Source: a virus (Duplodnaviria; Heunggongvirae; Uroviricota; Caudoviricetes). From it: 64,000 nucleotides of DNA. The first letter of the stretch is position 1. The number at the start of each line of letters is the position of its first letter. Below the pieces are notes generated by a model. That model was not told the origin of the DNA. It searched no databases and was given only the letters and a program-made list of their open reading frames with translations. Positions 35,122 through 36,749 of the stretch are shown piece after piece. The stretch covers positions 387,926-451,925 of IMG/VR virus record IMGVR_UViG_3300037484_000445. One strand, given 5' to 3'. The translations under genes were made by a program, and so were the position numbers.

Positions 35122-35418
35122 ATGCGCCGTCGTCACCTTACTCAAGACCTGAATCATCGTCGAGACTTAGCTCGAAGCGTTCTTGCTTGTCCGAAGCTTT
35201 CTCACCTCAAGCCCATTGATCAAGTTCGTTGGGTCTCAGAGCACCATCAGGCTGCTCGGGTATCGGGTGCCTTTCTTGATGCCACTTCGGCCAACATGAT
35301 CCTACAGGTCCACGCCTGCTTGTCACCGACGAACCAGCAACGCCTCGAGAACATGCCCGTACGAGCCATGTTCGCCACAGTTTGTGCTGTTCTGAGCAGC
35401 CGTCACGAATCCAACTGA
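35122..35418 (+). CDS. Hypothetical protein (LDATSAN.I.QV...LS..NQ motif)
   Basis: Class A-like motif 35087-35113 and AGGAGG. Confidence 0.75.
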   Translation: MRRRHLTQDLNHRRDLARSVLACPKLSHLKPIDQVRWVSEHHQAARVSGAFLDATSANMILQVHACLSPTNQQRLENMPVRAMFATVCAVLSSRHESN

Positions 35419-35460
35419 TTTACCGGTATCCAACCATGGTGTTGCGGTGTAGCCGACACC

Positions 35461-36525
35461 ATGGCTAGAGGTCGCTTCATCGTAGTTGAGGGTATCGATG
35501 GCTGTGGGTCATCCACACAAGCACGGTTACTTAAGGATCGCCTAGAGGGCGAGGGTATCGGGACCCTCCTCACGTGCGAACCCTGCCAAGGGCTGATCGG
35601 CAGGATGATTCGCCAGAACTTGCGTAAAGAACTGACGGACCCCCGAGACAACCAGCCCCATTCTTTTGGGTGGGAAGTTTCGGCCCTCCTCTTCGCCGCG
35701 GATCGTCTGGACCACGTCCAGAAAGAGATTCTTCCAGCCCTAGAGAAGGGCCACTGGGTTGTTTCAGACCGCTATCTGTTCTCCAGCCTTACCTACCAGT
35801 CTTTGACAGCAGGGGTGACTCGAGGGGAGGCCTTGGAGTGGATCCAAGTACTCAACTGTCGGGCGCTCGTTCCCGATCTGACGATCATCATCAACGCCTC
35901 AGCGGATGTGGCCGCTAGCCGTCGAGCCAAACGGGGCGGGGCCAAAGAACTCTACGAAGAGGACGATCTTCAACGAGCCCTTGCCGAAGCCTACAGTAAT
36001 CCTCGTGATTACCTCCTACACAAGAATTACGCCCTTGTGGATGGGAACACTGATGATCCTCACGAGGTGTTCAAGAGTGTTTGGGCCCTTATTCAAAAGG
36101 CACAAACAGACGGGTTTCCCGACGCCCGATTCGGGTTGAGCCCGGCCCTGAAGCAGCAGATGATCACCAATGCTATTGAAATGTCCCGTAACCCGGGGCG
36201 CCGTCTTCTTGGCGGAAGTGGCCCCATTTTAGGCTACACGGAAATAGCCCGAAGATTGTTTCCTATCGAGCCTATGCCTCAAGGAGCGCTGCCTATTTAT
36301 GACAGAGACCCAGGAGGGCCAGAGCCTCTAAGGGTTGTCTTCCCCCTATTTGAAGAACCAGCTTCGTCAAAAGATGAAGCTGGTTCAGAGGCAGGGCCTG
36401 TTACTCGACAAGAAGCAGCGATTGCTGGCCTCAAGTTGATATACGGTGGAGGAGCTGACACGACCGTTGAGGAAGCTCCTGGGGCCACCCCACCAGAGGG
36501 TGATGACGATCCTGACGTAGCTTGA
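35461..36525 (+). CDS. tmk: Thymidylate kinase with a C-terminal extension of about 135 aa
   Basis: EGIDGCGSSTQ P-loop, LLFAADRLDH, SDRY..SSLTYQ, PDLT. Confidence 0.93.
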   Translation: MARGRFIVVEGIDGCGSSTQARLLKDRLEGEGIGTLLTCEPCQGLIGRMIRQNLRKELTDPRDNQPHSFGWEVSALLFAADRLDHVQKEILPALEKGHWVVSDRYLFSSLTYQSLTAGVTRGEALEWIQVLNCRALVPDLTIIINASADVAASRRAKRGGAKELYEEDDLQRALAEAYSNPRDYLLHKNYALVDGNTDDPHEVFKSVWALIQKAQTDGFPDARFGLSPALKQQMITNAIEMSRNPGRRLLGGSGPILGYTEIARRLFPIEPMPQGALPIYDRDPGGPEPLRVVFPLFEEPASSKDEAGSEAGPVTRQEAAIAGLKLIYGGGADTTVEEAPGATPPEGDDDPDVA

Positions 36526-36749
36526 TGGCCAAGTGTAAGTATTGTGGTCGTGCCAATTGCCGACCTGGTCGGCCAAGGTGCCCTATGCAACGCAAAGTCA
36601 ACTCCAAGTGGGAGTTGTGTAATTGCGGGGCGTACCATTACACCCACCGTAAGGGATCAGGTATCTGTTACCATGCGAAGGATGCCGAGAAGAAGCAGTG
36701 GGAGAAGATCACAGGCACTTCTTGGGACACTGGCAAGCCAATCACATAG
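36525..36749 (+). CDS. Small Cys-rich zinc-binding protein
   Basis: CKYC...CNCGAYHYTHRKGSGIC. Confidence 0.75.
   Translation: MAKCKYCGRANCRPGRPRCPMQRKVNSKWELCNCGAYHYTHRKGSGICYHAKDAEKKQWEKITGTSWDTGKPIT

What the first reader, a model, noticed from the sequence alone, without database searches (positions are those of the whole stretch)
36133..36354. Thymidylate kinase carries a tail resembling pieces of a major capsid protein
Seen: after the complete Tmk fold comes LSPALKQQMITNAI...GRRLL...GYTEIARRLFPIEPMPQGALPIYDRDP...PLRVVFPLFE. From memory (not a search), this resembles N-terminal segments of HK97-fold major capsid proteins of some large myoviruses (roughly DY..VGRK.F.VE.LP.GALPIYDKDP and PRRV.FPLFE), with the intervening stretch deleted. 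Inference: a capsid-derived fragment fused to an enzyme could be a decoy for capsid-sensing defences, a tag that docks Tmk at assembly sites, or a relic of recombination.
Basis: inference. Interest (0 to 1): 0.75.

Follow-up and report, generated by a model that had tools for sequence, protein, structure and literature searches.

The report
Capsid-mimic tail on phage thymidylate kinase
A thymidylate-kinase-like enzyme of a 452-kb uncultured phage ends in a conserved, selected copy of the N-terminal part of the phage's own capsid protein; this belongs to a large family of such "capsid-piece" proteins that I could not find described, and what they bind is unknown.

Summary
ORF 35461-36525 (354 aa) has a Tmk-like domain (residues 1-215) and a 139-aa tail. 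Tail residues 226-298 are homologous to residues 4-94 of this phage's own major capsid protein (MCP; phage G gp27 type): BLASTP E 6e-13. MCP residues 66-83, the presumed E-loop tip, are replaced by a four-residue turn.

- **Not an artefact.** The fused frame stands without indels in contigs from four studies. It also occurs in four relatives of 354, 354, 292 and 299 aa.
- **Not debris.** The MCP-like helix and core motif are under purifying selection (dN/dS 0.06). The linker between them evolves freely.
- **Part of a family.** The module defines about 60 clusters of small proteins with the same MCP-derived ends and variable middles. Each genome searched holds at most one copy beside the MCP.
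- **Other pieces.** This genome also has two further small genes carrying other MCP pieces.

The function is unknown. I favour a molecular mimic that competes for a factor recognising the MCP N-terminus, probably a host capsid sensor (0.35). A head-docking tag is the main rival (0.25). A structure-based binding test gave no verdict.

Earlier notes of this scan describe capsid-piece genes on other huge-phage DNA, including one on a 407-kb phage with this MCP type.

The parts
35461..36525 (+). Whole gene: Tmk-like enzyme plus MCP-mimic tail (P0001, 354 aa, stop included)
   Evidence: orthologues P0005, P0006 (354 aa), P0018 (292 aa) and P0019 (299 aa)
35461..36105 (+). Thymidylate-kinase-like domain, residues 1-215. 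The P-loop reads GIDGCGSST, with Ser17 where the canonical Lys stands.
   Evidence: Pfam PF02223 E 6.6e-32; PHROG 761; dN/dS 0.068 against L005; P-loop S/T in all 121 closest homologues checked
36136..36198 (+). Residues 226-246: copy of the MCP N-terminal helix (LSPALKQQMITNAIE... against MCP VSNELKQQIISEYVK...)
   Evidence: BLASTP; AF2 helix at tail residues 13-27, block pLDDT 71-80; 7 synonymous to 1 non-synonymous change against L005, dN/dS 0.024
36199..36234 (+). Residues 247-258: variable linker, in place of MCP ~27-39. Other family members carry inserts of up to ~50 aa here.
   Evidence: residues 247-265 have only 44% nt identity to L005, with 87% flanks; dN/dS ~0.6-1 in three of the four pairs, not computable in the fourth; alignments A2, A5
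36235..36312 (+). Residues 259-284: core motif YTEIARRLFPIEPMPQGALPIYDRDP, the copy of MCP 40-65 (YTAVGRKTFLVEQLPDGALPIYDKDP). This is the signature of the whole family.
   Evidence: synonymous excess p 0.025 to 1.8e-5 in four pairwise comparisons
36313..36324 (+). Residues 285-288 (GGPE): short turn that replaces MCP 66-83, the presumed E-loop tip
   Evidence: gap in BLASTP alignment; same deletion in P0009, P0011 and L116-L119
36325..36354 (+). Residues 289-298 (PLRVVFPLFE): copy of MCP 85-94 (PRRVIFPLFE), the returning strand. Missing in P0018 and P0019 and in most stand-alone members.
36355..36522 (+). Residues 299-354: acidic, mostly low-confidence C-terminal extension. Its last 19 residues (VEEAPGATPPEGDDDPDVA, 36466-36522) look like a second, degenerate copy of the MCP motif VEQLPDGALPIYDKDPDVS.
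   Evidence: BLASTP second segment E 0.017; MAFFT aligns it with the second motif copy of P0008; pLDDT about 50; lies in a high-identity recombination block, so selection cannot be read

Best explanation
The tail is an exapted, selectively maintained copy of the N-terminal region of the phage's own major capsid protein. It keeps the N-terminal helix, the strand and loop with the near-invariant motif LP.GALPIYD(K/R)DP, and the base of the E-loop. It lacks the E-loop tip and the rest of the HK97 fold, so it cannot be a capsid subunit.

I read it as a molecular mimic. It presents the MCP's most conserved N-terminal surface in soluble form, and so competes with real MCP for whatever recognises that surface.

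The partner I favour is a host factor that senses or acts on newly made capsid protein. The tail would then be a decoy, and the Tmk-like enzyme an abundant carrier made before the late capsid gene.

Shown here:
- homology of the tail to the phage's own MCP;
- the exact anatomy of the copy;
- that the fusion is real;
- purifying selection on the helix and the core motif;
- membership of a large family;
- at most one copy per genome beside the MCP;
- no sign of a compact fold of its own, in a low-confidence model.

Inferred, not shown:
- that the tail binds anything;
- the identity of the partner;
- early expression;
- kinase activity.
For: 1. Homology to own MCP.
2. Purifying selection on the MCP-like segments: 17 synonymous to 5 non-synonymous differences, dN/dS 0.063, binomial p 1.7e-7. 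The linker between them is free to vary. The helix and core still show a synonymous excess in the distant pair L146/L147.
3. The module itself looks like the effector.
   - About 60 clusters of 46-203-aa proteins consist of little more than an MCP-like N-helix, a variable insert and the core motif.
   - 58 of 66 end within 25 residues after the motif, with an acidic tail.
4. Copy number is 0-1 per genome beside the MCP, in this genome and in 13 large relatives. A general cargo tag would be expected on several proteins.
5. The motif is sometimes doubled within one protein (P0008, L119, and the degenerate C-terminal copy here). That suits avidity for a binder.
6. Different MCP pieces sit on different small accessory proteins of this genome, like a panel of epitopes.
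7. The MCP is at least 90% identical in the best 80 of 581 matching IMG/VR loci. Escape from a sensor by mutating the MCP would be constrained.
8. The mimics diverge fast and are patchily distributed. Those I looked at lie among nucleotide and DNA-metabolism genes, not in the head module.
9. The tail alone is not predicted as a compact fold (pLDDT 61, pTM 0.19). This model is low-confidence, so it is weak support.
Against: - No sensor of this MCP is known, and no binding data exist.
- Known capsid sensors are switched on by binding. A decoy would have to bind without triggering.
- The Tmk fusion is kept stably in at least five variants with 78-99% identical Tmk domains. That could mean the enzyme itself is what needs to be addressed somewhere.
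- Many members keep both the N-helix and the strand at opposite ends of the protein. This suggests recognition of a three-dimensional surface, such as the MCP body or the scaffold, rather than a linear epitope.
- Expression timing was not measured.
Confidence: 0.35

Rival explanations
1. Head-docking or loading tag. The MCP-like tail binds what the MCP N-terminus binds during assembly: the scaffold C-terminus, a neighbouring MCP subunit or the decoration protein. The Tmk-like enzyme is thereby tethered to, or packed into, procapsids.
For: - The module is terminal in nearly all members and joined to varied partners: Tmk, Zn-ribbon and basic patches, and other domains.
- A phage G multi-omics preprint reports thymidine kinase and thymidylate synthase in proteomic data, and describes ribonucleotide reductase as packaged in the particle (bioRxiv 10.1101/2024.12.16.628780, read).
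- The Tmk fusion is stably kept.
- The scaffold C-terminus is highly conserved and would make a plausible partner.
Against: - There is at most one copy of the module per genome beside the MCP. Known targeting peptides mark several cargo proteins.
- Many members carry no obvious cargo.
- The module is absent from cultured phage G.
- Distribution among close relatives is patchy.
Confidence: 0.25
2. Assembly modulator. The mimic caps or competes for MCP or scaffold contact sites to time or tune assembly of the very large capsid.
For: - It copies elements that in HK97-fold shells make contacts between subunits and with the scaffold. This rests on established knowledge of the fold and was not tested here.
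- The helix and the core motif are under selection.
Against: - A core assembly factor should be present in all relatives that share a 90%-identical MCP. Instead the module is patchy and has several architectures.
- It lies outside the head module.
Confidence: 0.12
3. Functionless relic of an illegitimate recombination or duplication of the MCP gene, carried along by the Tmk gene.
For: - The C-terminal 55 residues show no sign of constraint: 1 synonymous to 8 non-synonymous changes, inside a recombination block.
- The linker has been scrambled.
Against: - dN/dS is 0.06 on the MCP-like segments, with p 1.7e-7.
- The same segments are conserved in distant orthologues.
- They are also conserved across a family of about 60 clusters.
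Confidence: 0.07
4. Fold complementation. The N-terminal piece on Tmk, the E-loop piece (G000:366358-366804) and the C-terminal-strand piece (G000:349512-349910) come together into a pseudo-capsid-protein domain that holds their carrier proteins in one complex.
For: The three genes of this genome carry different pieces of the MCP, overlapping only slightly: residues 4-94, 59-137 and 241-280.
Against: - The pieces do not co-occur in relatives. Orthologues turn up in different genomes.
- No structural test could be run.
Confidence: 0.05

Closest known systems
Major capsid protein of phage G type (gp27, PDB 6wkk; HK97 fold, Pfam PF05065)
   Same: The tail is homologous to residues 4-94 of this phage's own gp27-type MCP: N-terminal helix, conserved strand and loop motif, and base of the hairpin.
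   Different: It holds only about a quarter of the protein. The hairpin tip, spine helix, A-domain and C-terminal strands are missing, so it cannot build a shell. It is fused behind an enzyme.
Capsid-targeting peptides: encapsulin cargo-loading peptides and the T4 capsid targeting sequence (from established knowledge)
   Same: A short terminal module on otherwise unrelated proteins, next to a flexible linker. The shell protein is of HK97 or encapsulin type.
   Different: Those tags are not derived from the shell protein and mark several cargo proteins per genome. Here the module is a copy of the shell protein itself and occurs at most once per genome beside the MCP.
Gol region of T4 gp23, sensed by the Lit protease with EF-Tu, and other capsid-sensing defences such as CapRel (from established knowledge)
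   Same: A short, highly conserved N-terminal stretch of an MCP acts on its own as the recognised element. Earlier notes of this scan report stand-alone copies of that region in T4-like huge phages.
   Different: The MCP lineage is different, with no sequence relation to gp23. No sensor is known for this MCP. A phage-encoded antagonist copy has not been described, as far as I could find.
SaPI1 CpmB, and P4 Sid or PICI Ccm, as mimics within capsid assembly (from established knowledge)
   Same: These are proteins that imitate part of a head-assembly protein to compete for its contacts.
   Different: They are satellite proteins that imitate the scaffold or the whole MCP in order to redirect capsid size. 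Here the phage copies a piece of its own MCP, outside the head module.
Bacterial thymidylate kinases with a Lys-less P-loop, ~213 aa (Polyangiaceae and Labilithrix MAG entries among the named hits)
   Same: The N-terminal 215 residues are about 50% identical and share the unusual P-loop GxxGxG(S/T)(S/T)T.
   Different: None of the two bacterial homologues aligned, nor any listed homologue of 208-245 aa, carries a tail. The tail is confined to the phage orthologues.

Membership tests
Thymidylate kinase (Pfam PF02223) | Profile match above the curated cut-off over the kinase fold | tested here: met
   111 bits against a cut-off of 27, residues 9-178; PHROG 761
Thymidylate kinase (Pfam PF02223) | Canonical P-loop GxxGxGK(S/T) with the catalytic Lys | tested here: not met
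   The P-loop is GIDGCGSST, with Ser17. All 121 closest homologues checked have S or T there, so this is a sub-family trait and not decay.
Thymidylate kinase (Pfam PF02223) | dTMP phosphorylation activity | not testable with these tools
   No assay possible. The name rests on sequence similarity only.
HK97-fold major capsid protein (phage G gp27 type) | Sequence homology to the MCP | tested here: met
   Tail 226-298 against own MCP 4-94, E 6e-13; E 7.8e-7 genome-wide
HK97-fold major capsid protein (phage G gp27 type) | Complete fold: E-loop, spine helix, A-domain and C-terminal P-domain strands | tested here: not met
   The alignment stops at MCP residue 94 and skips 66-83. Nothing in the tail matches MCP 95-292. 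The tail is therefore not a capsid protein.
Capsid-targeting or cargo-loading peptide | The same tag present on several different proteins of one genome | tested here: not met
   The family HMM finds only the Tmk tail and the MCP in this genome, and 0-1 extra copies in each of 13 relatives.
Capsid-targeting or cargo-loading peptide | Physical binding to the shell or scaffold, and presence in heads | tested here: inconclusive
   The complex prediction gave no verdict. No proteomics exist for this phage.
Anti-defence decoy or mimic protein | Accessory-gene behaviour: fast-evolving, patchy, outside the structural module | tested here: met
Anti-defence decoy or mimic protein | Binds and blocks a host immune sensor | not testable with these tools
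   The host and any sensor are unknown.

The most novel reading that the evidence does not exclude
Huge phages whose capsid protein is too constrained to mutate carry panels of small proteins, or tails on early enzymes, that copy the most conserved pieces of that capsid protein. They use these as competitive antagonists of capsid-sensing bacterial immunity. The Tmk tail would be one such decoy. If earlier notes of this scan hold, the same strategy arose independently in T4-type huge phages.
Probability: 0.3. Interest if true: 0.85.

Novelty: new variant of a known kind. Interest (0 to 1): 0.72.

Why it matters
If the module is a decoy, it would be a new class of counter-defence: self-mimicry of a structural protein. 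It would also point directly to the epitope that unknown capsid sensors read.

If it is a docking tag, it would be a shell-derived address that loads enzymes into one of the largest known phage heads. Such an address could be useful for engineering HK97 or encapsulin-type shells.

Either way, it shows that pieces of an almost invariant capsid protein have repeatedly been turned into independent, selected modules. The family has dozens of members and no annotation.

Tried and rejected
- **Complex prediction** (MCP + two copies of the scaffold C-terminus + tail): no verdict (score 0.00, controls not run). It counts neither for nor against binding.
- **AF2 model of the MCP** from 23 near-identical sequences: pLDDT 31, unusable. 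The assignment of 'N-arm helix' and 'E-loop' to MCP segments therefore rests on colinearity with 6wkk and on general knowledge of the HK97 fold, not on a model.
- **RNA evidence**: no RNA holder listed, so nothing can be said on expression.
- **ESM Atlas look-up of the tail**: no usable hit.
- **Pfam and PHROGs on the tail and on family members**: nothing significant.
- **Pfam on ten neighbouring genes**: only a TPP enzyme 3 kb downstream.
- **Tmk homologue in 13 large relatives**: none found. The fusion could therefore not be dated in that set.
- **Phage G and LR745208.1**: phage G has a tail-less Tmk and no mimic. LR745208.1 has only a weak hit inside a 1260-aa ORF (E 1.5e-3), left open.
- **Phage G capsid paper** (PMC7316594): not held.
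- **Literature search** for capsid decoys or mimics: no description of such a family. The library is limited.
- **dN/dS of the C-terminal 55 residues**: rejected as uninformative, because they lie in a recently exchanged high-identity block.
- **Two 'degenerate MCP paralogue' notes** of earlier readers on this genome (near 58 kb and 190 kb): not recovered by my MCP search of the genome.

Full report
**What is there.** The window is G000:C1:387926-451925 of a 451,925-bp IMG/VR virus record that CheckV estimates as 94% complete. ORF 35461-36525 (+) encodes P0001, 354 aa.
- Residues 9-178 match Pfam Thymidylate_kin (E 6.6e-32) and PHROG 761.
- Bacterial homologues of about 213 aa end at P0001 residue ~215. 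The last 139 residues are therefore an appendage.
- The appendage has no Pfam or PHROG match.

**The tail is a copy of the phage's own capsid protein N-terminus.**
- A six-frame search of the whole genome with the tail finds only itself and one other place, G000:C1:83356-83544 (E 7.8e-7).
- That place lies in a 292-aa gene (P0003). It is preceded by a Gln-rich protein with a conserved C-terminus (the probable scaffold) and by a 211-aa gene at the position of phage G's capsid decoration gene gp26.
- P0003 matches phage G gp27 (PDB 6wkk) end to end at E 7.7e-63.
- BLASTP of tail against MCP gives E 6e-13. Tail 226-298 aligns with MCP 4-94, 34 of 93 positions identical, with one 15-residue gap.

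Read from the alignment, the tail keeps these parts:
- the N-terminal helix (residues 226-246);
- the near-invariant MCP stretch YT.(V/I)(G/A)R..F.(V/I)E.(L/M)P.GALPIYD(K/R)DP (residues 259-284);
- the returning strand PLRVVFPLFE (residues 289-298).

MCP residues 66-83 lie between the two halves of a hairpin-like pattern. By their position in the HK97 fold they are the E-loop tip. They are replaced by GGPE.

The last 19 residues resemble a second, degenerate copy of the motif (E 0.017). MAFFT aligns them with the second motif copy of P0008.

**Not an artefact.**
- Contigs of four public runs from four studies (freshwater sediment, sediment, wetland) cover 35300-36700 with substitutions only and no indels. 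Two single contigs span the whole stretch.
- Fused genes of the same length occur in independent assemblies: P0005 (98% identical) and P0006 (89% identical; NCBI contig of 448,843 bp).
- More distant orthologues are P0018 (292 aa) and P0019 (299 aa). Their Tmk domains are 80% and 78% identical. They carry a shorter tail with the helix, linker, core motif and a short acidic end.

**Selection.** Against L005, Nei-Gojobori counts give:

| Segment | dN/dS or identity |
|---|---|
| Tmk domain | 0.068 |
| Two MCP-like segments together | 0.063 (17 synonymous, 5 non-synonymous) |
| Linker, residues 247-265 | 44% nucleotide identity, same length |

- The synonymous excess in the MCP-like segments has binomial p 1.7e-7.
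- In the distant pairs (window/L146, window/L147, L146/L147), synonymous sites are saturated or nearly so. The core still shows a synonymous excess in every pair (p 1.5e-3 to 1.8e-5). The helix shows it in L146/L147 and window/L146 (p 8e-4, 4e-3), but not in window/L147 (p 0.34). The linker behaves as neutral.
- The C-terminal 55 residues lie in a high-identity block that also covers the next gene, so they cannot be judged.

**A family, not a one-off.**
- A search of 1.84 billion representative proteins with the tail returned small proteins and fusions that carry the same module.
- A profile of these found 125 proteins of 46-203 aa.
- About half are truncated or frameshifted MCP calls. Some 60 are distinct mimics: an MCP-like N-helix at the start, a variable middle and the core motif.
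- The variable middle can be a helical insert, a basic RGRKRLRKKKA-type patch or a Zn-ribbon.
- In 58 of 66 mimics the protein ends within 25 residues after the motif, usually with an acidic tail.
- Proteins of 250-330 aa carry the module internally, with the same hairpin-tip deletion: P0011, P0009 (211 aa) and L116-L119.
- The MCP is at least 90% identical in the best 80 of 581 matching IMG/VR loci.
- In 13 large relatives, the profile finds the MCP in every one and one further copy in only four.
- In this genome the Tmk tail is the only copy beside the MCP. The flanking domains of the 250-330-aa type are absent.
- None of the 13 relatives has a detectable Tmk homologue. Phage G has a tail-less Tmk and no mimic.
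- Where context could be read, the mimic genes lie among nucleotide and DNA-metabolism genes, not head genes. Neighbours include thymidine kinase, NUDIX, thioredoxin, UvrD, exonuclease, Ham1, HD-domain proteins and a DNA methyltransferase.

**Other capsid pieces in the same genome.** A search of the genome with the MCP also hits two small genes.
- G000:366358-366804 (+) resembles MCP 59-137, with the hairpin intact (pairwise E 3e-8).
- G000:349512-349910 (-) resembles MCP 241-280 (E 6e-8).
- Both have orthologues in single relatives, G009 and G008.

**Structure.** AF2 on the tail with the family alignment gives helices at tail residues 13-27, 31-34, 44-51 and 101-112, and an extended motif. 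Mean pLDDT is 61 and pTM 0.19. This low-confidence model gives no sign of a compact domain, so the tail probably takes shape on a partner. The MCP model failed. The complex prediction gave no verdict.

**Interpretation.**
- The data establish a selected mimic of the MCP N-terminus. What it binds is inferred.
- I favour a competitive mimic or decoy (0.35), for four reasons:
  - the module, rather than any cargo, is the constant part;
  - it is at most single-copy per genome;
  - it is sometimes doubled within one protein;
  - different MCP pieces sit on different accessory proteins, while the MCP itself is nearly frozen.
- The head-docking reading (0.25) remains serious. The module is terminal, the Tmk fusion is stable, and a phage G multi-omics preprint reports nucleotide-metabolism enzymes in its proteomic data of purified particles (bioRxiv 10.1101/2024.12.16.628780).
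- The relic reading is largely excluded by the selection tests.

**Novelty.**
- I found no description of such a family in the held literature.
- Earlier notes of this scan report comparable capsid-piece genes on other huge-phage DNA, including a 407-kb phage with a gp27-type MCP and T4-like phages. These are unchecked AI notes.
- My own searches independently recover the family.

Noticed in passing
window 35491-35517 (P0001 residues 11-19): The Tmk P-loop is GIDGCGSST, without the canonical Lys. All 121 closest homologues checked, phage and bacterial (Polyangiaceae and Labilithrix MAGs among the named ones), have S or T at that position. This is a distinct Lys-less Tmk sub-family whose activity is untested.
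   Followed up: partly
G000:C1:366358-366804 (+) = L016:1444-1890: A 148-aa gene whose residues 21-95 resemble MCP 59-137, with the complete hairpin, the following strand and the start of the long helix (pairwise E 3e-8). An orthologue lies in G009 at 280111-280296.
   Followed up: partly
G000:C1:349512-349910 (-) = L017:1240-1638: A 132-aa gene whose N-terminus resembles MCP 241-280, the C-terminal strands (19/40 identical, E 6e-8). An orthologue lies in G008 (38% identical over the whole length, E 1.3e-19).
   Followed up: partly
G000:C1:348520-348927 (-): A 136-aa frame ending ...CESCEAKEGYYHAMGRSVIKVEPLSVG. It looks like a truncated member of the Zn-ribbon sub-family of mimics (compare P0008, P0161). 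The HMM hit is weak (E 0.3-0.9).
   Followed up: no
window 36199-36255: A 57-nt stretch, the linker of the tail, has only 44% identity to the orthologue in L005 and the same length, inside 87-100% identical flanks. L005's version resembles that of the distant orthologue L146 (GRRSG.xY), so the window's copy is the one that changed.
   Followed up: partly
L004:3-719 (G000 ~81858-82574) and the same position in relatives: The probable scaffolding protein has a Gln- or acid-rich variable body. Its C-terminus is strongly conserved: RTAS.RTVGT.P..GV...G, a variable stretch, then KL..LW.SAPDV...F.
   Followed up: partly
L013 (LR745208.1 101439-101624, minus strand): A 1260-aa ORF of the 485-kb uncultured phage contains a weak match to the core motif (...LAKALVPVESMPAGA...; E 1.5e-3 to 2.7e-3). 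It could be an internal copy of the module or chance.
   Followed up: no
P0216, P0245 (metagenomic proteins): In these, MCP C-terminal-like strands (…PVRTELT…) are followed directly by the MCP N-terminal module, as if derived from the junction of tandem MCP copies.
   Followed up: no
window 36522-36749 (+): A 75-aa Cys-rich (zinc-finger-like) ORF overlaps the Tmk stop codon. It lies in the same high-identity block shared with L005. It has no Pfam hit.
   Followed up: no
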